Origin: Candidatus Nomurabacteria bacterium
GTDB taxonomy: Bacteria; Patescibacteriota; Minisyncoccia; Phycocordibacterales; UBA9973
Direction of reading: 5' to 3'
Length of the DNA: 64,000 nt
Assembly (NCBI GenBank): GCA_016699365.1
Contig: CP064973.1
Coordinates: forward strand, 575,161 to 639,160
The notes beneath the pieces were generated by a model that saw only the letters and a program-made list of their open reading frames with translations, was not told the DNA's origin and ran no database searches. Shown piece after piece: positions 12,396 to 58,968 of the stretch (its first letter is position 1; each line of letters opens with the position of its first letter). Both the position numbers and the translations under genes were made by a program.

Positions 12396-13012
12396 ATAGT
12401 TTTTACTATTAGCGCTTTTCGCTCTCGATTTTTAAAGTAGGCCAGTGCAGTAAATATCGTTACGAGGATCATCGATACTGCTAGGTCTATGTGTCCATAA
12501 GTTAGAAATACATATAGCGAACTCGAGTAGAAGTATACATAAGAGAGCTTCTGAATTCTTTTCCAATTATCACCGAGTAACCTTTTAGAAAGACTATTTG
12601 ATGTTATGAGCAAGATTATAGCGGTTATATCTCCCATATGAGCAAGTACAGCATAATTCACCATTGACCAATATTCTAGCGTAAAAAAGCTGTTTAGGTA
12701 TCCGCCTGGGTCCATGATTATTTTAGCAAATATAAACGATACGATTATAGATGCAGACAGAACACCCGCCCCTTTTCGCAGTATCACAAGTGGTCTGATC
12801 CATTTATTTTCCATAAATATATCTGCCATTGGTCTCACAATCATCACGAAAAATAGAGCTACGTGTGAGATGTTGTATATATTTGTGATGTCGGTTGCGT
12901 TGAATGTATTTGGCGAAAACACCAAGACAAGTGGCAAGATCATCATCGCCAGTATAGATATCCCGAGTAATATTTCCTGTGTGTATTTTATTGTAGTTAA
13001 GTATTTTTTCAT
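12392..13012 (-). CDS. ferric-reductase-like transmembrane protein (MsrQ/YedZ-type heme-binding domain)
   Basis: 206 aa, about six TM helices with conserved His in the TM segments; 4-nt overlaps with both neighbours suggest translational coupling. Confidence 0.6.
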   Translation of the reverse strand: MKKYLTTIKYTQEILLGISILAMMILPLVLVFSPNTFNATDITNIYNISHVALFFVMIVRPMADIFMENKWIRPLVILRKGAGVLSASIIVSFIFAKIIMDPGGYLNSFFTLEYWSMVNYAVLAHMGDITAIILLITSNSLSKRLLGDNWKRIQKLSYVYFYSSSLYVFLTYGHIDLAVSMILVTIFTALAYFKNRERKALIVKTI

Positions 13013-13917
13013 ATATTTTTATTTACAACCCCAGATTCTGTTATGGTTATATATTTTATTTTTGATTCTGCAAATAGTACGTTCACATCTTTTATAGGTA
13101 AGCTCAAGAACACTTTTGCGAACGCTTCTGCGCTAGATCCACTTTCGTGTATTATGCTTGCTGAGATTGTTCCACTGTCAGTATTGCCGGTTCCAGACTT
13201 GTTTAGTATGTGATTTATTTTATTGCCAGATCTATCCCAAACCCTTTTGTATGTTCCACTTGTGGCTAGGCTTTGGTTGAATATTTCTACGGGTTCATTT
13301 TTATCTGGATTGACTGGATTGTAGATACTGAAGATAAATTTTCTATTGTGTTCGTCTAGACCTCGTGTGCATATATCTCCGCCTAGATTTACAATCACTC
13401 CACTTACACTTTCATTTTCAATTATATTTTGGGCTATTTTTTCGGCGAGATATCCCTTCAAGACTCCTCCGAAATCCAATTTTTGGCAATCAGCTAGAGT
13501 GATTTTATTATTCTCTATATCGATTTTTACACTATCAAAATCAATGTCATAACATAGATCTATCGGGGTGTCTTGTGGTGTAAGCTCTGTATATGTTTTG
13601 TCATACCCGAAACGCTCAATCTGTACGAGCGGATTAAATATTCCTTTCGTTTTTTTATAAAGCATAAATGCTTCACTTATAACTTCCATAAACTCTCTAG
13701 AAACATTCATCTCTTTTTTTTCATTCAGCTTTGATAGTTCACTGTCAGGTAGGAATCTAGAGAATTTTTTTTCATATTCTTTTATTGTGTTTAGCGCCTG
13801 CACTCCAAGTACACCTGCTTTTACCTCATCATTAGATATGATTGATATAAAGCACTCTGTGCCCATCGCTTTCATCTTAAATTCATATTCTTTATTCATA
13901 ATGCAACTATAAAACAA
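13009..13917 (-). CDS. apbE: FAD:protein FMN transferase ApbE
   Basis: KAMGTE, DFGGVLKGY, LVNLGGD and TSGTYKR motifs; the true start may be an internal Met (MKAMGT...). Confidence 0.85.
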   Translation of the reverse strand: MFYSCIMNKEYEFKMKAMGTECFISIISNDEVKAGVLGVQALNTIKEYEKKFSRFLPDSELSKLNEKKEMNVSREFMEVISEAFMLYKKTKGIFNPLVQIERFGYDKTYTELTPQDTPIDLCYDIDFDSVKIDIENNKITLADCQKLDFGGVLKGYLAEKIAQNIIENESVSGVIVNLGGDICTRGLDEHNRKFIFSIYNPVNPDKNEPVEIFNQSLATSGTYKRVWDRSGNKINHILNKSGTGNTDSGTISASIIHESGSSAEAFAKVFLSLPIKDVNVLFAESKIKYITITESGVVNKNI

Positions 13918-19994: not shown

Positions 19995-20002
19995 ATTTTT
20001 TC

Positions 20003-20031
20003 AAAACCCTCCGATTGCGGAGGGTTTTTAA
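20003..20031 (+). terminator. rho-independent terminator
   Basis: AAACCCTCCG-ATT-GCGGAGGGTTT followed by TTAAT. Confidence 0.6.
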
Positions 20032-20057
20032 TATGCTTGTGTAGACAAATTATCTCC

Positions 20058-20345
20058 CAAAGAAAAAAGGCTGTTCCGTAGAACAGCCTTCTAAAACTCC
20101 TATTTATAAGTCTCCGGATGGTGCCGGCAGATTTCTGCGAAATCTTCTCCAATTCCGCATACTTGGGACACCCGATACGTATCCCGCAACCTCAAGCAAG
20201 TGAGGACTTGCTTGATTTAGACTATTTCTCCGTTCGCTCGCCACTACTGGGAGATAAAGAGCTTTTTGTAAAGATAACACATAAATCTGGATAGTCAAAC
20301 AACCCTACCGCCTCGTATCCTCGAGGCGGTTTCTCCACCCAAAAT
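20058..20345 (-). ncRNA. 23S rRNA domain-I-like fragment with its own intrinsic terminator (rRNA-derived ncRNA or pseudogene)
   Basis: The minus strand reads ...UCUCCCAGUAGUGGCGAGCGAACGGAGA..., near-identical to the universal 23S segment CCCAGUAGCGGCGAGCGAACGGGGA. Flanking stretches resemble the adjacent 23S helices but other universal cores are diverged or missing. It ends in the hairpin AGGCUGUUC-UACG-GAACAGCCU plus UUUUUU, at 20058-20090 on the minus strand. Confidence 0.5.
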
Positions 20346-20389
20346 ACCATTGTTTTGAGAGGGGATTTGTGGGATGATAAATAAATATA

Positions 20390-40000: not shown

Positions 40001-40150
40001 GATATAATATCGATTATACACTTGTATGGATAAAACGACAAAATATTTTATATTGCTCTTATTTATACTCATGGGTATATCAGTCGGATATACTTTTTAT
40101 AGTTCAGTAGTTAGAGAAAATTTTTCTATTATTGTAACGGAGGAATAAAT

Positions 40151-41818
40151 ATGAACGAAGTACTACTTTGCCCAGACGCAATACCAAACGTACTAGGAAT
40201 GTTTGATTTTTCAATAGCACCTAGACTACTGTTTTATTCTTATATCCCTATTGTTTTTATAAGTCTCATAATGGGATTTTTAATATTCTTTAAAGATAAA
40301 TTTTCCCTTAGAGGATCTTTGTTTTTAACTCTTACAATATCTTTCGCTTTTTGGGTGCTAAGCATCTTGTTCCAATGGACTGCAGCTGGAGCTGGATTGG
40401 TACACTTTTCATGGCAGATATTGGCATTGTTTGAGGTTCTAGTATATATATCTTCATTTTATTTCGTATATGTATATGTATACAAAAAAGATTTAGGTCC
40501 TTTCTTGAAAATATTTTTCTTTTTGTTCTTGATAGTAGTTTCCTTGCTTTTACCTTCCGAATATATGATGCGAGAATTTGATCTAATAAACTGCCAATCA
40601 GTACTTGGTCTGTTTTGGGGTGCGATTTATGTTTTTGAATTTGCACTTCTGCCAATAATTTTATTCTTGGGTATAAGTAAAAGTCACAAGATCCCAGACC
40701 CTATAGAACGTAAACAATCTATGATAATTACGATTGGAAACGTTCTGTTTCTAGCTATATTTGCACTATCAAACATAGTGGGGGAAATAACTCAACAATA
40801 TGAGTTCAATCTTTTTGGTCCTATTGGAATGGTTTTGTTTTTAGGATTAGTTACATATTCAATGGTTCGCTATAAAGCATTTAATATGCGATTGATTGGA
40901 GTGCAGGTACTAGTGTTAGCACTAGTCGCTCTAGTATTCTCTCTATTGTTTATAAATAGCCTAGATGTTATCCATGTAATCATAGTTATAACCCTAGGAT
41001 TGTTATCTATTGTGGGATATTTCTTGATTCGAGGTGTTATGCGTGAAATAAGACAAAAAGAAAGACTTACAGTGCTATCAAATAGTCTTTCTGAAGCAAA
41101 TGAGAAGTTAAAAGATTTGGATAAACTGAAAACTGAGTTTCTATCACTTGCATCGCATCAACTTAGAAGCCCACTAACAGCTATTACTGGGTACACTTCT
41201 ATGCTCCTAGATGGATCTTTCGGAGAAGTTCAACCTAAACAAAAAGAAGCTATTGATCGCGTCTTTGAATCAAGTAGGCACCTAACAAAGGTTGTTGAAG
41301 ATTTGTTAAACGTTTCAAAAATCGAACAAGGTGGAATGAAATATGAGATGAAGCCTTTTGATTTCACCGAAGCCGTTAGTACACTTTCTGCTGATTTATC
41401 TGTGACGGCCGAGAAAAAAGGATTGAAGCTTAAATTCAGTACTGATAGTAGTAATAATTACTTTGTAAACGGAGATATGGAGAAAATCTGCCAAGTTATA
41501 ATAAACCTAATAGACAATTCAATTAAATACACAGAAACTGGTGGTTCAATAGATGTATCCGTAACATATTCTCCTCTTGATCGAGTCCTGCTTTCTATAA
41601 AAGACACTGGTATGGGAATCGAACCGAGTATTGCAAAAACTTTGTTTCAGAAATTTAGTCGTGGAGAAGGCGGTAAGGTAAATACTGGTGGATCAGGGCT
41701 GGGACTTTACTTGGCAAAAGAAATTATTGATGCACACAAAGGCAAGATTTGGCTTGAATCAAAAGGAAAAGGAAAGGGAACAGAGTTTTATGTTGAGCTT
41801 TCCGCGCTAGATAGATAA
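40151..41818 (+). CDS. multi-pass membrane sensor histidine kinase (orphan)
   Basis: Seven or eight N-terminal TM helices; H-box LASHQLRSPLTAI; N-box NLIDNSIKYT; G2 GGSGLGLYLAKEII. Confidence 0.85.
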   Translation: MNEVLLCPDAIPNVLGMFDFSIAPRLLFYSYIPIVFISLIMGFLIFFKDKFSLRGSLFLTLTISFAFWVLSILFQWTAAGAGLVHFSWQILALFEVLVYISSFYFVYVYVYKKDLGPFLKIFFFLFLIVVSLLLPSEYMMREFDLINCQSVLGLFWGAIYVFEFALLPIILFLGISKSHKIPDPIERKQSMIITIGNVLFLAIFALSNIVGEITQQYEFNLFGPIGMVLFLGLVTYSMVRYKAFNMRLIGVQVLVLALVALVFSLLFINSLDVIHVIIVITLGLLSIVGYFLIRGVMREIRQKERLTVLSNSLSEANEKLKDLDKLKTEFLSLASHQLRSPLTAITGYTSMLLDGSFGEVQPKQKEAIDRVFESSRHLTKVVEDLLNVSKIEQGGMKYEMKPFDFTEAVSTLSADLSVTAEKKGLKLKFSTDSSNNYFVNGDMEKICQVIINLIDNSIKYTETGGSIDVSVTYSPLDRVLLSIKDTGMGIEPSIAKTLFQKFSRGEGGKVNTGGSGLGLYLAKEIIDAHKGKIWLESKGKGKGTEFYVELSALDR

Positions 41819-49426: not shown

Positions 49427-49444
49427 ATGAATTATATTTTTTAA

Positions 49445-49472
49445 AATACCCGCTTGCGGGTATTTATTTTTG
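49445..49472 (+). terminator. rho-independent terminator
   Basis: AATACCCG-CTTG-CGGGTATT followed by TATTTTT. Confidence 0.55.
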
Positions 49473-49484
49473 GTAGTAGTATAA

Positions 49485-49645
49485 AGATATCCACTGATCC
49501 GCTGACAACGGGGAGGAAAACCAAGATTACAAGGTCATCTCGCTCGAAACGAGACTGACGAAGTAGGGTGGCACCGCGTTTCAAACATGAATCGCCCCTG
49601 CGAATTTACAAACTAATGTAAGTTCGAAGAGGCGATTTTTGTTTC
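49485..49645 (+). promoter_or_regulatory. T-box riboswitch leader for aspS
   Basis: T-box core AGGGUGGCACCGCG at 49565-49578. The antiterminator fits: AGGG/CCCU and GCG/CGC helices around a UGGCACC bulge, where UGGC would pair the tRNA GCCA end. A mutually exclusive terminator AAUCGCC...GGCGAUUUUU lies at 49592-49645. Candidate specifier GAC followed by A at 49504-49507. Confidence 0.75.
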
Positions 49646-49664: not shown

Positions 49665-50959
49665 ATGGTAAAAGCTATACATGTTTCTGAATTGAAAAAT
49701 CATAGTGGTGAAGACGCAACCGTACAAGGTTTCGTTCATACACTTCGCGTGCAAAGTAAGATTATTTTCTTGATACTTCGTGATGTAACTGGAATCGCAC
49801 AAACAGTTGTAGAGATCAAAGATCCTGAAGTATTTGAAATTGCAAAAAATCTCTCTCATGAATCTGTTGTTAGAATATCCGGCTTAGTAAAAGACGTACC
49901 TCAGGCTCCAGGTGGATTTGAAATTGGAGTCTCATCTATCGAAGTACTCTCAGTTGCAAACCCTGAACTACCGATTCCAATTATTGAAAGGGAAATGAGG
50001 AAACAGAAGCTCCAACACGTTTTGACTATCGATGGATAGACCTACGTAAGCCAGAAAAAACAAAAATATTTAAAGTTTGGACTGAGCTCGAAAAAGGTTT
50101 CAGAAAATATTGGGATGAAAATGGGTATACCCAGCTCTACTCACCATCTTTTATGTCTACACCGTCTGAAACTGGAGCAGAAGTTTTCGAGGTAAATTAT
50201 TTTGACCGCAAGGCATACCTCGCACAATCTCCACAATTCTACAAACAAATGGGAATTGCATCTGGTTTTGAGCGCGTATTTATCGCAGGTCCAGTATTTA
50301 GAGCAGAAGAATCTTTCACAACTCGTCATATGACAGAGTTCACTGGCTGGGACTTCGAGATTGGTTTTATAGATTCACACCATGATGTTATGGACCAAGA
50401 AGAAGGAATGATTGTTTCTGGATTTGAAAATCTAAAAGCTAAATTCCCAGAGCTTGATATTACTGTTCCGAGTATACCTTTTCCAAGAATAAAAATGACT
50501 GAAGCAAAAGAAATCCTTTCCAAAGAAGGAATTGCAAGTTCTGAAGACCATGACCTATCACCAGAAGAAGAACGCGCAATATGTGAATATGTAAAAAAAG
50601 AACACAATCACGAATTCGTTTTCATAACTGATTACCACAAATCAAAATCTGCTTTCTACCACATGAGATTGGAAGAGGGATCTGACAGATCTCGTCGCGC
50701 AGACTTACTTTTCCGAGGTATCGAAATAACGACACTTGCACAACGTGAGCATCGTATAGACATACTTGAAGCTCAGGCAAAGGAGAAGGGAATGTCACTT
50801 GAAGCACTGTCTGACTATCTAAATTTCTTCCGCTACGGCTGTCCTCCACATGGAGGTGCTGGAATTGGCCCAGGACGTCTTATAATGAAGATCTTAGACC
50901 TTCCAAACGTCCGTGAGGCGACATATCTACCGAGAGACGTGAAGAGACTTAATCCGTAA
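49665..50959 (+). CDS. aspS: aspartate--tRNA ligase, archaeal/eukaryal type, interrupted by an apparent -1 frameshift
   Basis: OB-fold anticodon-binding domain in 49665-50039; the catalytic core in the -1 frame reads from ...TRFDYRWIDLRKPE... (motif 2 FRAE, motif 3 GGAGIGPGRL, C-terminus LPRDVKRLNP as in archaeal-type AspRS). One extra T in the T4 run at 50020-50023 joins them. Confidence 0.85.
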
Positions 50960-56185: not shown

Positions 56186-57313
56186 ATGAGAATACTTTTT
56201 ACAGGAGGAGGAACCGGCGGGCATTTTTACCCAATCATTGCTATTGCTGAAGCATTGAACAAGATAGTCGACGAGGAAAAGATTTTAAAATCGGAACTTT
56301 ACTATATGTCTACCGAGCCATATGACAAGCAGGCACTTTTTGAAAATAATATAAAGTTTGTACAAGTAAACGCAGGTAAGCTTCGGATATACCCATCTAT
56401 AAAAAACATAACTGATATGTTTAAAACAGCGACTGGATGCATGGAAGCAATATTTAAAATATTTGCTCTATATCCTGATGTTGTATTTGGTAAAGGTGGC
56501 TTTGCGAGCTTCCCAGCACTTTTTGCAGCAAAGATTCTACGTATACCTGTAGTTATCCATGAATCAGACTCTGCCCCGGGTAGAGTAAACAAATGGGCAA
56601 GTAAATTTGCAAAAAGAATAGCAATATCTTTCCCAGAAGCAATAGACTCTTTCCCAAAAAATAAAACAGCTTGGACAGGACAGCCTGTGCGTAGAGATAT
56701 TGCACGAGGAGTAAAAGAAGGAGCTCATGAATACTTTGGGTTTGATCAAAACATTCCAGTGATCCTAATTTTAGGTGGATCTCAAGGTGCTCAAAAAATA
56801 AACAACGCTCTTATAGACGCACTTCCTGCTCTTCTTCCAAATTTCCAAATAATTCATCAAGTTGGTCCTAAAAATCTTGAAGACATAACACAAACCGCAA
56901 ACGTAATAATTGCAAACAATGAATTCAAAAAAAGATACAAACCTATTGGTTTTTTAAATCCATTGGGAATAAAAATGGCAGCTGGTGCTGCAAATATAGT
57001 AGTATCTCGTGCTGGTTCAACCATATTTGAAATAGCAGGCTGGGGAGTTCCAGCTATAATAATTCCTTTTGATAAATCAAACGGAGATCATTCACGTAAA
57101 AATGCGTATACATACGCAAGAAGTGGCGCAGGAGAGGTGATAGAGGAAACAAATCTTTCCCCAAACCTTCTAGTTGCAGAAATCGAAAAATTGGTAGGGG
57201 ATAGTGTGAAAATAGAAGCAATGAAAAAAGCCGCGCTTTCTTTTGCGCGACCAGATGCTGCAAATACTATTGCAAGAGAAATTATAAATATCGCACTCAA
57301 GCACGAACAATAA
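56186..57313 (+). CDS. murG: UDP-N-acetylglucosamine--N-acetylmuramyl-(pentapeptide) pyrophosphoryl-undecaprenol GlcNAc transferase
   Basis: MRILFTGGGTGGHFYPIIAIAEAL N-terminal Gly-rich motif; GT-B fold. Confidence 0.93.
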   Translation: MRILFTGGGTGGHFYPIIAIAEALNKIVDEEKILKSELYYMSTEPYDKQALFENNIKFVQVNAGKLRIYPSIKNITDMFKTATGCMEAIFKIFALYPDVVFGKGGFASFPALFAAKILRIPVVIHESDSAPGRVNKWASKFAKRIAISFPEAIDSFPKNKTAWTGQPVRRDIARGVKEGAHEYFGFDQNIPVILILGGSQGAQKINNALIDALPALLPNFQIIHQVGPKNLEDITQTANVIIANNEFKKRYKPIGFLNPLGIKMAAGAANIVVSRAGSTIFEIAGWGVPAIIIPFDKSNGDHSRKNAYTYARSGAGEVIEETNLSPNLLVAEIEKLVGDSVKIEAMKKAALSFARPDAANTIAREIINIALKHEQ

Positions 57314-57316
57314 AAA

Positions 57317-57445
57317 AAGCGCCGATCTAAAAAGAGATCGACGCAAACGAGGTCTGATCACACCCCTGGATACCTCCACTGTCAGCTCATTAGGCCACAG
57401 CAACCGGGAGGGTCGTTGCTATGCCTGTACTCTCTAATCCGTAAT
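57317..57445 (-). ncRNA. candidate small structured RNA of unknown class, antisense-oriented between murG and gltX
   Basis: GC-rich island. The minus strand ends with the intrinsic terminator GCGUCGAUCU-CUUUUU-AGAUCGGCGC plus UUUUUU at 57317-57350. Internal hairpin AGCAAC-CGGGAGGGUC-GUUGCU. No good match to SRP, tmRNA, RNase P or tRNA. Confidence 0.4.
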
Positions 57446-57516
57446 TAGGATATTAACATATTAATATTCTAAAGTCAAGTATCCTCAAAAAAGCCTTTAT
57501 TTGCTATACTTTTTCT

Positions 57517-58968
57517 ATGCCTGAATCAAAAAAAGTTGTAACTCGTTTTGCACCAAGCCCAACAGGCTATATGCATATAGGTGGTGTGCGCACTGCGCTT
57601 TTTGCGTGGGCATTTGCACGTAAAAATAAAGGAACTTTTATACTTAGAATAGAAGATACTGACAAAGCCCGTGAAGTAGAAGGTTCTATTGAACATATAA
57701 TAAAATCTTTAAAGTGGCTCGGTATTGAGTGGGATGAAGGAGTCGATATAGGCGGACCAAATGCACCATATCTTCAATCAAAAAGATTGGACTCTTATAA
57801 AAAATACGCAAACATTTTAATCGAAAAAGGTCTTGCTTACGCAGACCCATATACAGAAGCAGAAGTTGAAGAATTTAGAAAAAAATCCGAAGCAGATAAA
57901 AAACCTTTTTTGTTCAGAGATTACAGACCAGAAAATCCTCCAGCTTGGGATGGAACAAAACCTCTTCGGTTAAAAGTATCTGAAATAAAATCTTATAAAT
58001 GGAACGATCTAGTTCGAGGAGAACTTTCTGCTGGACCGGAAGCTTTAGATGACATAATTCTAATTAAAAGCGATGGATATCCTACTTACAATTTTGCACA
58101 TATAATCGACGATCTAGAAATGGGAGTAACACATATCATGAGAGCCGATGAATTCATATCTTCAACTCCAAAGTTTTTGTCTATATACGAAGCACTTGGT
58201 ATTGAAAGACCTGAATTTGCGACCCTTCCGCCTATTATGGCTCCTGATGGAAAAAAGAAGCTCGGCAAGCGCGACGGTGCAAAAGATATATTGGAATACA
58301 AAGACGAAGGATATTTACCCGAAGCCATGATAAATTTTTTGGCTTTTATTGGATGGAACCCAGGAGACGAAAGAGAAATTCTTAGCCCTTCTGAGTTTAT
58401 AGAATCTTTTGATATTACAAAGGTCCAAAAATCTGGAGGTGGTTTTAATACAGAGAAACTAAATTGGATAAATCGTGAACATATGAAAAGTCTTACAGAG
58501 TCTGAATTTTTAATTAAATTAGATGAACACATACCGCAAGATTTTAAAAACAAGATAGGGGATAAAATAAATAAACTAGTACCACTAATCAAAGAAAGGA
58601 TAGAGAAATTTTCTGATATAAAAAATATGATAGAGATAGGGGACTTAGATTATTTTTCTGATAGACCAAAATACGATGCGACTAAATTGATATTTAAATA
58701 TTCCACAAAAGAAGCTATTGTTGAAAATCTAAAACATGGATATGAATTGATAGATGGAATAAAAGATACTGAATTTACACAAGATTCTATAAAAGAAACT
58801 CTTATGAATAATCTAGATAAAGATAAGCGTGGTCCGACACTTCATCCTATTCGTATAGCACTATCCGGACTAGATAAATCACCAGATCCTTTTGTTATTT
58901 CATCTATATTGGGCAAATCAGAGACATTGGAAAGAATCAAAATTGCTATGGAACTCCTCGCGGGTTAA
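57517..58968 (+). CDS. gltX: glutamate--tRNA ligase
   Basis: VVTRFAPSPTGYMHIGGVRTALF (HIGH region) and KLGKRDGA (KMSKS-like) motifs. Confidence 0.93.
   Translation: MPESKKVVTRFAPSPTGYMHIGGVRTALFAWAFARKNKGTFILRIEDTDKAREVEGSIEHIIKSLKWLGIEWDEGVDIGGPNAPYLQSKRLDSYKKYANILIEKGLAYADPYTEAEVEEFRKKSEADKKPFLFRDYRPENPPAWDGTKPLRLKVSEIKSYKWNDLVRGELSAGPEALDDIILIKSDGYPTYNFAHIIDDLEMGVTHIMRADEFISSTPKFLSIYEALGIERPEFATLPPIMAPDGKKKLGKRDGAKDILEYKDEGYLPEAMINFLAFIGWNPGDEREILSPSEFIESFDITKVQKSGGGFNTEKLNWINREHMKSLTESEFLIKLDEHIPQDFKNKIGDKINKLVPLIKERIEKFSDIKNMIEIGDLDYFSDRPKYDATKLIFKYSTKEAIVENLKHGYELIDGIKDTEFTQDSIKETLMNNLDKDKRGPTLHPIRIALSGLDKSPDPFVISSILGKSETLERIKIAMELLAG

What the first reader, a model, noticed from the sequence alone, without database searches (positions are those of the whole stretch)
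57317..57445. Antisense-oriented structured small RNA between murG and gltX
A GC-rich island of about 130 nt sits in an AT-rich spacer. A 10-bp hairpin followed by six U makes sense as a terminator only on the minus strand, while both flanking genes are on the plus strand. An internal hairpin AGCAAC-CGGGAGGGUC-GUUGCU has a GNRA-like GGGA loop. It is not a T-box for gltX, and I could not match it to SRP, tmRNA, 6S, RNase P or tRNA consensus.
Basis: seen in the sequence. Interest (0 to 1): 0.5.

Follow-up and report, generated by a model that had tools for sequence, protein, structure and literature searches.

The report
Orphan small RNA gene in Nomurabacteria
Between the murG and gltX genes of a tiny-genome Candidatus Nomurabacteria bacterium lies a real, backward-facing gene for a structured RNA of about 130 bases that matches no known RNA family, occurs in only four closely related species, and has no known function.

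Summary
Window 57312-57478 on the minus strand is a compact non-coding RNA gene. It has a near-consensus promoter (TTGACT, 17 nt, TG-n-TAATAT), a transcript of about 130 nt, and a 10-bp terminator followed by U7.

I found it on ten contigs (seven distinct sequences, four species-level lineages), always between murG and gltX. The nearest outgroups have only 1-60 nt in that spacer. 80 other Paceibacteria murG loci also lack it.

Two helices, P1 (12 bp) and P3 (5-6 bp), are kept through seven compensatory pair changes. 93% of cells pair on the minus strand and 84.5% on the plus strand. The terminator hairpin has three unrelated sequences. An 18-nt single-stranded stretch, CUGACAGUGGAGGUAUCC, and the C-rich P1 loop, GACCCUCCCG, are almost invariant.

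Rfam, ARAGORN, phage and plasmid searches find nothing. It is not a T-box, SRP RNA, 6S RNA, tmRNA or tRNA.

The most likely function is a trans-acting base-pairing regulator. No target could be named, and this organism hardly uses Shine-Dalgarno sequences, which weakens the usual model for C-rich loops. The rivals are antisense control of murG-to-gltX read-through and a protein- or ribosome-binding pseudoknot. It is a new family of a known kind, of moderate interest.

The parts
57473..57478 (-). -35 hexamer TTGACT of the sRNA promoter
   Evidence: It is invariant in all alleles.
57450..57458 (-). Extended -10 element, TG-T-TAATAT, 17 nt downstream of the -35 hexamer
   Evidence: Across alleles the sequence is TG + TA[A/G/C/T]TAT: only the third hexamer position varies, and the 17-nt spacer keeps its length but not its sequence.
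57427..57445 (-). Predicted 5' end and 5' single-stranded tail (AUUACGGAUUAGAGAGUAC). The start site is inferred at about 57445-57440.
   Evidence: The position is inferred from the promoter. The tail is only moderately conserved.
57392..57426 (-). Helix P1: 12 bp with one bulged nucleotide. The 5' strand is 57426-57415 and the 3' strand is 57404-57392.
   Evidence: Predicted by RNAfold and RNAalifold. It is 95% paired, with 4 pairs showing compensatory changes.
57405..57414 (-). C-rich apical loop of P1, GACCCUCCCG (resembles an anti-Shine-Dalgarno sequence)
   Evidence: It is conserved as ACCCU(C/U)CCG, or UGAUCCUUCCCG in L082.
57368..57385 (-). Conserved single-stranded linker CUGACAGUGGAGGUAUCC, with an SD-like GGAGG at 57377-57373. 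It is the candidate seed, or a pseudoknot partner of the P1 loop.
   Evidence: It is identical in five of the seven distinct sequences, with 1 change in L081 and 2 in L082. Pairing between loop and linker is compatible in 100% of cells, but all changes are one-sided.
57349..57366 (-). Helix P3: 5-6 bp (GGGGU / ACCUC) with an 8-10 nt loop
   Evidence: It has 3 pairs with compensatory changes.
57312..57344 (-). Intrinsic terminator: 10-bp hairpin (57344-57319) plus U7 (57318-57312), ending at the murG stop codon
   Evidence: Three unrelated stem sequences in the homologs all fold at -16 to -19 kcal/mol, with z from -4.2 to -6.8.

Best explanation
Window 57312-57478 (minus strand) is a lineage-specific gene for a non-coding small RNA of about 130 nt.

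Inferred from sequence and comparative evidence, with transcription itself not observed:
- It is transcribed from its own sigma-70-type promoter, convergent with murG and divergent from gltX.
- It ends at an intrinsic terminator.
- It folds into a 5' tail, a 12-bp hairpin P1 with a C-rich 10-nt loop, a 24-nt conserved single strand, a short hairpin P3, and the terminator hairpin.

Inferred function: it acts in trans as a base-pairing regulator. The nearly invariant unpaired segments (linker CUGACAGUGGAGGUAUCC and/or loop CCCUCCC) would pair with complementary stretches in one or a few mRNAs and change their translation or stability.

My confidence that it is a real, selected, minus-strand RNA gene is about 0.9. 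My confidence in the trans-acting base-pairing mechanism is about 0.4. The figure given here is for the whole statement.
For: - Gene signals: the promoter is TTGACT-17-TG-TAATAT and the terminator has 10 bp plus U7. In the homologs the -35 hexamer and the TG are invariant. The -10 hexamer varies only at its third position. The spacer keeps its length but not its sequence.
- Terminator: three unrelated terminator sequences all fold well.
- Structure: P1 and P3 are 93.1% paired, against 31-46% when the 3' partners are slid by 1-3 columns. Seven pairs carry compensatory changes, and 0/500 shuffles reach the observed values. The result is the same with 7 distinct sequences. RNAalifold finds P1 and P3 independently.
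- Strand: the mirror structure on the plus strand is only 84.5% paired, because 7 G-U cells become C-A.
- Selection: core identity is 0.61-0.90, while third-codon positions in the flanking genes are 0.46-0.85 identical; the core is not the more conserved in every pair. Variation is concentrated in the stems, and the linker and loop are almost invariant. That pattern points to a sequence-specific partner.
- No conserved ORF: the only AUG in the window copy is AUG-AGC-UGA, and it is absent from L100.
- Copy number: a single copy in the window.
Against: - No transcript data are available.
- No target could be named. Duplex predictions with the neighbouring genes are no better than shuffles, and the window-wide scan found nothing convincing at a start codon.
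- The classical mode of action for C-rich loops is masking a Shine-Dalgarno sequence, which fits this organism poorly. SD-like cores are depleted upstream of its genes (5/76, against 10/76 and 16/76 in controls).
- Only four species-level lineages carry the gene, so the statistics rest on few independent events. Related sequences can beat the shuffle control without any structure.
- Only 64 kb of a genome of roughly 705 kb (the length of its single NCBI contig) could be searched for targets.
Confidence: 0.4

Rival explanations
1. It is a cis-antisense RNA or insulator. In most relatives murG and gltX are 1-60 nt apart and are probably co-transcribed. Here the convergent sRNA gene sits between them. 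Its transcript is fully complementary to any murG-to-gltX read-through RNA. Through transcriptional collision and/or duplex cleavage it would uncouple gltX from the cell-wall (dcw) operon, as GadY does in the E. coli gadX-gadW spacer.
For: - murG-gltX synteny with very short spacers is the rule in the 74 related loci that carry both genes and in the nearest outgroups.
- No plus-strand terminator was found between the murG stop and gltX.
- On the plus strand the sRNA terminator hairpin is followed by a U-run only in L081 (read).
- gltX has its own extended -10 element, TGCTATACT, just before the ATG.
Against: A purely antisense role does not need a fixed sequence, because any sequence is complementary to its own opposite strand. 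Yet the linker and the P1 loop are almost invariant while the stems change freely. The two roles do not exclude each other.
Confidence: 0.2
2. It is a protein- or ribosome-binding structured RNA. The P1 loop (CCUCC) and the linker (GGAGG) pair to form an H-type pseudoknot that is recognised by a protein. Alternatively, the free GGAGGU-AUCC stretch mimics an extended Shine-Dalgarno sequence and occupies the 3' tail of 16S rRNA.
For: - Loop-linker pairing is compatible in 100% of cells in 7 distinct sequences. All three observed substitutions are wobble-preserving: C-to-U opposite G, and A-to-G opposite U.
- The loop lengths are sterically compatible with an H-type pseudoknot (inference).
- GGAGGUAUCC is complementary to the canonical bacterial 16S 3' end GGAU(C)ACCUCC (own knowledge).
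- mRNAs of this organism lack SD sequences, so such a motif is conspicuous.
Against: - There is no two-sided compensatory change in the putative pseudoknot. Three wobble-preserving transitions would happen by chance in about 1 of 8 cases.
- RNAalifold prefers a weak local hairpin in the linker.
- The 16S sequence of this organism was not available.
- In L082 the motif is GGGGGCAUCC, which is less complementary to the 16S tail.
Confidence: 0.15
3. It is a plus-strand cis-regulatory leader of gltX (a T-box or another riboswitch) within a murG-gltX transcript.
For: Structured leaders, especially T-boxes, are common upstream of aminoacyl-tRNA synthetase genes (established knowledge). The helices can also form on the plus strand (84.5% of cells paired).
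Against: - No T-box or other Rfam hit at E<=10.
- Seven G-U cells become mismatches on the plus strand, and none goes the other way.
- The conserved promoter and terminator lie on the minus strand.
- Folding is weaker on the plus strand: -32.0 against -43.6 kcal/mol.
- gltX has its own promoter-like element downstream of the island.
- Relatives manage with 1-60 nt spacers.
Confidence: 0.03
4. It is a neutral or selfish relic: a leftover promoter-terminator cassette from a lost minus-strand gene, or a spreading cassette with no cellular function.
For: - Distribution is narrow.
- Other lineages (L097, L098) carry a minus-strand 138/157-aa ORF behind a similar promoter at the same place.
- The cassette has been swapped between species by recombination.
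Against: - Compensatory changes keep two helices and the terminator intact.
- The core is more conserved than third-codon positions in five of the six species pairs.
- Similarity to the L097 ORF region stops at the promoter.
- There are no terminal repeats and no second copy in the window.
Confidence: 0.07
5. It is a ligand-controlled antisense RNA. P1, the linker and P3 form an aptamer that controls the terminator, and read-through transcripts run antisense into murG and the dcw operon.
For: The architecture is promoter, then structured domain, then terminator, facing the 3' end of an operon. Riboswitch-controlled antisense RNAs are known in Listeria and Clostridium (own knowledge).
Against: No conserved antiterminator alternative was seen. 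The only candidate, GAUC in the P3 loop against the terminator stem, is absent from L100 and L081 (read). The terminators are strong, at -16 to -19 kcal/mol with 6-7 U. No Rfam riboswitch hit was found.
Confidence: 0.05

Closest known systems
C-rich / UCCC-loop sRNAs of Firmicutes (RsaE/RoxS, Rfam RF01820, and related S. aureus Rsa RNAs)
   Same: These are independent transcripts of about 100-130 nt with their own promoter and an intrinsic terminator. A hairpin presents an unpaired C-rich motif (here CCCUCCC). They probably act by base pairing, and they are restricted to one lineage.
   Different: No sequence or covariance-model similarity was found. This RNA has one C-rich loop rather than two or more. 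It also has an invariant G-rich single strand that those RNAs lack. The host hardly uses Shine-Dalgarno sequences, which are the usual targets of those sRNAs.
Alphaproteobacterial 'cuckoo' / alpha-r14 sRNAs (CcsR1-4, NfeR1) with CCUCCUCCC anti-SD loops
   Same: The hairpin loop carries an anti-SD-like CCUCC motif (comparison from own knowledge).
   Different: There is no homology. Those RNAs have two or three repeated hairpins and often sit next to DUF1127 genes. Here there is a single hairpin inside the dcw-gltX locus of a CPR bacterium.
GadY-type cis-antisense sRNAs in operon spacers (E. coli gadX-gadW)
   Same: The small RNA is encoded on the opposite strand of an intergenic spacer between two co-oriented genes. 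It could pair with the polycistronic transcript and direct its processing.
   Different: Whether a read-through transcript exists is unknown. The strong primary-sequence conservation of the unpaired segments goes beyond what an antisense role needs. There is no sequence relationship.
T-box leader (Rfam RF00230), the usual structured RNA upstream of tRNA synthetase genes
   Same: It is a structured, GC-rich RNA element directly upstream of an aminoacyl-tRNA synthetase gene.
   Different: It lies on the opposite strand, has no Rfam match and no specifier or T-box motifs, and has its own promoter and terminator pointing away from gltX.

Membership tests
Independently transcribed bacterial small RNA gene (generic kind) | Own promoter immediately upstream, on the same strand | tested here: met
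   The promoter is TTGACT-17-TG-TAATAT. The conservation pattern is the one expected of a functional promoter.
Independently transcribed bacterial small RNA gene (generic kind) | Intrinsic terminator at the 3' end | tested here: met
   A 10-bp stem plus U7. It is structurally conserved with three different sequences, z from -4.2 to -6.8.
Independently transcribed bacterial small RNA gene (generic kind) | Conserved secondary structure supported by covariation, on the transcribed strand | tested here: met
   Seven compensatory pairs. 93.1% of cells pair on the minus strand, 84.5% on the plus strand, and 31-46% in slid controls.
Independently transcribed bacterial small RNA gene (generic kind) | No conserved open reading frame | tested here: met
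   Only AUG-AGC-UGA occurs in the window copy, and it is absent from L100.
Independently transcribed bacterial small RNA gene (generic kind) | A discrete transcript of the predicted size is detected | not testable with these tools
   No transcriptome data were accessible.
T-box leader (RF00230) | Sense-strand leader with specifier loop, T-box sequence and a terminator/antiterminator switch, matching the covariance model | tested here: not met
   No hit at E<=10 in 57200-57600 or in three homologous loci. The structure and gene signals are on the opposite strand.
Bacterial SRP RNA (RF00169 / RF01854) | Helix 8 capped by a GNRA tetraloop, with conserved symmetric and asymmetric loops; present in all relatives | tested here: not met
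   No Rfam hit. The P1 loop has 10-13 nt and the P3 loop 8-10 nt. The element is absent from the same spacer in the nearest outgroups and from the DNA held around their murG-gltX loci.
tRNA / tmRNA | Cloverleaf or tRNA-like domain recognised by ARAGORN | tested here: not met
   ARAGORN finds no gene in the whole window.
6S RNA (RF00013) and RNase P RNA | Match to the family covariance model; length of about 180 nt (6S) or more than 300 nt (RNase P) | tested here: not met
   No hit. The transcript is about 130 nt.
RsaE/RoxS (RF01820) | Match to the family covariance model | tested here: not met
   No hit at E<=10.
RsaE/RoxS (RF01820) | Unpaired C-rich (UCCC/CCCC) motif presented in a hairpin loop | tested here: met
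   The P1 loop is GACCCUCCCG. This is a functional resemblance only.
cis-antisense sRNA of an operon spacer (GadY-like) | An overlapping transcript exists on the opposite strand | not testable with these tools
   Only the prerequisite was checked: no plus-strand terminator-like site lies between the murG stop and gltX.

The most novel reading that the evidence does not exclude
In a bacterium whose mRNAs have almost no Shine-Dalgarno sequences, this sRNA keeps a perfect SD-like strand (GGAGGU-AUCC, complementary to the canonical 16S 3' tail) and an anti-SD-like loop (CCUCC) that can pair with each other. It might be a ribosome-directed RNA. In one version it docks on the otherwise idle anti-SD tail of 30S subunits. 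In another it switches between a closed pseudoknot and an open form that binds the tail. Either way it would tune translation globally, or of the few SD-bearing genes such as the histidine kinase at 40151. That would be a regulatory principle not described for CPR bacteria.
Probability: 0.07. Interest if true: 0.7.

Novelty: new member of a known kind. Interest (0 to 1): 0.35.

Why it matters
Regulatory RNAs of Candidate Phyla Radiation (Patescibacteria) bacteria are almost unknown, because the organisms are uncultured and their genomes are annotated for proteins only. None of my four literature searches returned a described sRNA of this group.

This locus is a clean, comparatively supported example of a lineage-specific sRNA gene in a bacterium whose genome is probably about 0.7 Mb (the length of its single NCBI contig). 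It has defined ends, a supported secondary structure and candidate interaction surfaces. That makes it a ready target for metatranscriptome mapping and for seeding a new RNA family.

It also shows two further things. The murG-gltX junction of the dcw region is a hotspot where different minus-strand cassettes have been inserted. The sRNA cassette itself is exchanged between species by recombination.

If the SD/anti-SD-like motifs prove functional in an organism that does not use SD-led initiation, the finding would bear on how translation is controlled in such organisms.

Tried and rejected
1. Rfam. The whole window at gathering score gave no hit. The region at E<=10 gave only noise: snoRNA, miRNA, CRISPR-DR and suhB at 12.9 bits. 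Three homologous loci gave no consistent hit.
2. ARAGORN found no tRNA or tmRNA.
3. blastn and nhmmer of the sRNA against 80 murG loci from GTDB genomes found nothing. Covariance model R1 over 840 kb of related loci and the window found only the true copies. With filters off, it found nothing more in the window or the outgroups.
4. The longer murG-gltX spacers in other lineages (L005, L006, L028, L072, L076) are unrelated AT-rich hairpins, N-runs or small ORFs.
5. Pattern scans gave only chance hits in GC-rich coding DNA. The patterns were CTGACAGTGGRGGYAYCC and TCCCGGTT-N-CTGACAGTGG in the viral collection, and CCCGGTT-N{13,20}-CTGACAGTGGRGG in JGI metagenomes. The nearest relatives come from NCBI, Logan and ENA data, which cannot be scanned by DNA pattern here.
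6. A second CTGACAGTGG in the window (13172-13181) lies inside a coding ORF and is a chance match.
7. Phage and plasmid collections gave no match.
8. Target prediction failed. Duplexes with the gltX, M23 peptidase and murG start regions are no better than shuffles, and the window-wide scan was uninformative.
9. Looking for the organism's 16S 3' end in the fetched loci found none.
10. Literature searches for CPR/Patescibacteria sRNAs or anti-SD usage returned nothing relevant.
11. The idea that the P3 loop encodes a conserved start-stop mini-ORF (GUG-UGA) was rejected, because L100 and L082 have GUA at that position.

Full report
OBSERVATION. The spacer between the plus-strand genes murG (56186-57313) and gltX (57517-58968) is 203 nt long (gene identities from NCBIfam). 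It holds a GC-rich island: GC is 0.55 in 57340-57429 against 0.25-0.33 around it. This is the most GC-rich 80-nt intergenic stretch of the whole 64-kb window (0.59). On the minus strand a 10-pair hairpin (57344..57319) is followed by seven T. On the plus strand the same hairpin is followed by AAAC, so it can terminate only minus-strand transcription. On the transcribed strand its loop is the 10-nt C-rich GACCCUCCCG, not a GNRA tetraloop.

GENE ANATOMY. That places the 5' end at about 57445-57440. The transcript is then about 130 nt and ends in the U-run at 57312, abutting the murG stop codon. The minus-strand RNA folds to -43.6 kcal/mol (z = -1.8). The plus-strand RNA folds to -32.0 kcal/mol (z = -0.95). 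The terminator alone has z = -5.1. There is no conserved ORF. The only AUG in the window copy gives AUG-AGC-UGA, and it is missing in a homolog.

ORGANISM AND DISTRIBUTION. The window's GltX is identical to a protein on a 705,143-bp NCBI contig named Candidatus Nomurabacteria bacterium. The MurG relatives are Patescibacteria/Paceibacteria genomes assembled from metagenomes.

- Where it is absent. The murG-gltX order is the rule in this group, usually with a spacer of only 2-60 nt. None of 80 GTDB murG loci contains anything similar, by blastn, nhmmer or a covariance model. The few longer spacers are unrelated.
- Where it is present. It was found only on contigs whose MurG is at least 82% identical to the window's. 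These are L081 (93%), L082 (84%) and L100 (82% over a partial gene), plus six strain-level variants, L101-L106 (99%). That makes ten copies, seven distinct sequences and four species-level lineages.
- Nearest outgroups. L083 and L084 (MurG 74% and 71% identical) have spacers of 53 and 32 nt. L107-L109 have a spacer of 1 nt. The model finds nothing in them even with filters off.
- Copy number and other collections. The window holds a single copy. DNA-pattern scans of the JGI metagenome and IMG/VR collections gave only chance hits. Phage and plasmid collections gave nothing.

The gene is therefore confined, as far as could be searched, to one genus-level clade and one locus.

CONSERVATION PATTERN. 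Promoter: the -35 TTGACT and the TG of the extended -10 are invariant. The -10 hexamer is TAATAT, TAGTAT, TACTAT or TATTAT, so only its least critical third position varies. The 17-nt spacer keeps its length but not its sequence. This is the signature of a working promoter.

Terminator: three unrelated stem sequences are each followed by 6-7 U and fold at -16 to -19 kcal/mol, with z from -4.2 to -6.8.

Core: I defined P1 (12 pairs) and P3 (6 pairs) by eye on the four-species alignment A5, and RNAalifold recovered both independently. On A5, 93.1% of cells form standard pairs, against 31-46% when the 3' partners are slid by 1-3 columns. Seven pairs show changes on both sides, and 0 of 500 shuffles reach the observed values. 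With seven distinct sequences the figures are the same. In strain variants L101-L103 the change G22-to-U is absorbed by pairing with the formerly bulged G.

Strand: the mirror structure on the plus strand is 84.5% paired, because seven G-U cells become C-A, and no cell goes the other way.

In contrast to the stems, the P1 loop and an 18-nt stretch of the linker, CUGACAGUGGAGGUAUCC (57385-57368), are almost invariant. Core identity between species is 0.61-0.90, while third-codon positions of the flanking genes are 0.46-0.85 identical. The core is the more conserved in five of the six species pairs. The exception is L100 against L082, whose flanks are almost identical.

KNOWN FAMILIES. Rfam 15 gives no hit at gathering score in the whole window. 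At E<=10 in 57200-57600 it gives only noise. It gives no consistent hit in three homologous loci. ARAGORN finds no tRNA or tmRNA. The features that define a T-box, SRP RNA, 6S RNA or RsaE/RoxS were tested and not met (see the membership table). The literature searches found no described sRNA of this bacterial group.

CONTEXT THAT BEARS ON MECHANISM.
(a) This organism hardly uses Shine-Dalgarno sequences. SD-like cores occur in 5 of 76 upstream regions, fewer than in control positions (10/76 and 16/76). The usual role of C-rich sRNA loops, masking SD sequences, can therefore apply to very few genes. One such gene is the histidine kinase at 40151, which has aacGGAGGaataaatATG.
(b) gltX has its own extended -10-like element, TGCTATACT (57502-57510), ending 6 nt before the ATG. 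It is also present in L083, which lacks the sRNA. gltX therefore does not need the island as a leader.
(c) No plus-strand terminator lies between murG and gltX, so read-through RNA fully complementary to the sRNA is plausible.
(d) The P1 loop CCUCC and the linker GGAGG can pair with each other. All 35 cells are compatible, and the three substitutions seen are wobble-preserving. There is no two-sided change, however, so this pseudoknot is possible but unproven.
(e) GGAGGU-AUCC is complementary to the canonical 16S 3' tail (own knowledge).

MECHANISM. Inferred from sequence signals and comparison across relatives (no transcript was observed): this is a minus-strand, independently transcribed, structurally constrained non-coding RNA gene (confidence about 0.9).

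Inferred: the invariant unpaired segments indicate a sequence-specific partner. The most common solution in bacteria is base pairing in trans with mRNAs, and I commit to that as the most likely mechanism (about 0.4). I stress that no target could be named. Predictions with the neighbouring genes are no better than shuffles, and only 64 kb of a genome of probably about 705 kb could be scanned.

Rivals:
- Antisense control or insulation of murG-to-gltX read-through (0.2). This does not exclude the main explanation, but it does not explain the invariant sequence.
- A protein- or ribosome-binding pseudoknot or SD mimic (0.15).
- A neutral or selfish relic (0.07). This is contradicted by the compensatory changes.
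- A ligand-controlled antisense RNA (0.05). No antiterminator was seen.
- A plus-strand gltX leader (0.03). This is contradicted by the strand evidence.

EVOLUTION. L100 is a mosaic. Its murG is 0.87-0.98 identical to L082 in 100-nt windows, up to about 50 nt before the stop codon. Its sRNA spacer is 0.88-0.90 identical to the window, against 0.57-0.67 to L082. The first 160 nt or so of its gltX are again about 0.95 identical to L082. The sRNA cassette has thus been exchanged between species by homologous recombination through the conserved flanks. In two other lineages (L097, L098/L099) the same spacer carries a minus-strand 138/157-aa ORF with no Pfam hit behind a similar TTGACA-17-TATAGT promoter. 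Similarity to the window stops at the promoter region. The murG-gltX junction is therefore a recurrent insertion site for minus-strand cassettes.

VERDICT. This is a new RNA family of a known kind: an orphan, lineage-restricted bacterial sRNA. I score interest at 0.35. It is a well-supported sRNA in a bacterial group where almost none are known, and it has an odd SD/anti-SD-like motif pair in an organism that hardly uses SD sequences. Against that, its distribution is narrow, no expression data exist and no target is known.

Noticed in passing
L100:740-1130 compared with L082 and window 57285-57680: L100 is a mosaic. Its murG and the start of its gltX are about 95% identical to L082, but the sRNA spacer between them is 88-90% identical to the window's allele and only 57-67% identical to L082's. 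This indicates exchange of the sRNA cassette between species by homologous recombination.
   Followed up: partly
L097:1173-1589 (-); L098:2441-2914 (-); L099:1394-1867 (-): In other Paceibacteria lineages the same murG-gltX spacer holds a minus-strand ORF of 138 or 157 aa with no Pfam hit. The L097 product looks hydrophobic by eye. It sits behind a similar TTGACA-17-TATAGT promoter and before its own terminator. The junction seems to be a hotspot for minus-strand insertions.
   Followed up: partly
window, upstream regions of 76 ORFs: Shine-Dalgarno-like cores are depleted just upstream of start codons: 5/76, against 10/76 further upstream and 16/76 inside coding sequence. Upstream regions are A/T-rich. 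The organism appears to initiate translation without SD pairing.
   Followed up: partly
window 57502-57516 (+): gltX is preceded by an extended -10-like element, TGCTATACT, ending 6 nt before the ATG. It is also present in L083, which lacks the sRNA. This suggests a leaderless or nearly leaderless gltX mRNA. Window-wide, TAnnnT boxes 5-9 nt before start codons are only mildly enriched: 24/76 against 15-17/76 in controls.
   Followed up: partly
window 40130-40153 (+): The sensor histidine kinase gene (40151-41818) is one of the very few genes with a canonical SD, aacGGAGGaataaatATG. It is a possible but untested target for the CCUCC loop of the sRNA.
   Followed up: no
window 19995-20389: A 395-nt intergenic stretch has GC up to 0.55, no convincing ORF, and only noise-level Rfam hits that resemble terminators. 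It may hold another unannotated RNA.
   Followed up: partly
window 49432-49602 (+): A weak T-box-like match (21.5 bits, E = 0.006, far below the gathering score of 93) lies in a GC-rich spacer upstream of a 124-aa ORF (49665-50039). It is probably not a true T-box, but the spacer looks structured.
   Followed up: no
window 1-64000: No tRNA, tmRNA, rRNA or any Rfam family at gathering score was found in 64 kb.
   Followed up: yes
window 13172-13181 (-): A second exact copy of the 10-mer CTGACAGTGG lies inside a coding ORF (13009-13917, minus strand). It shows no other similarity to the sRNA and is a chance match.
   Followed up: yes
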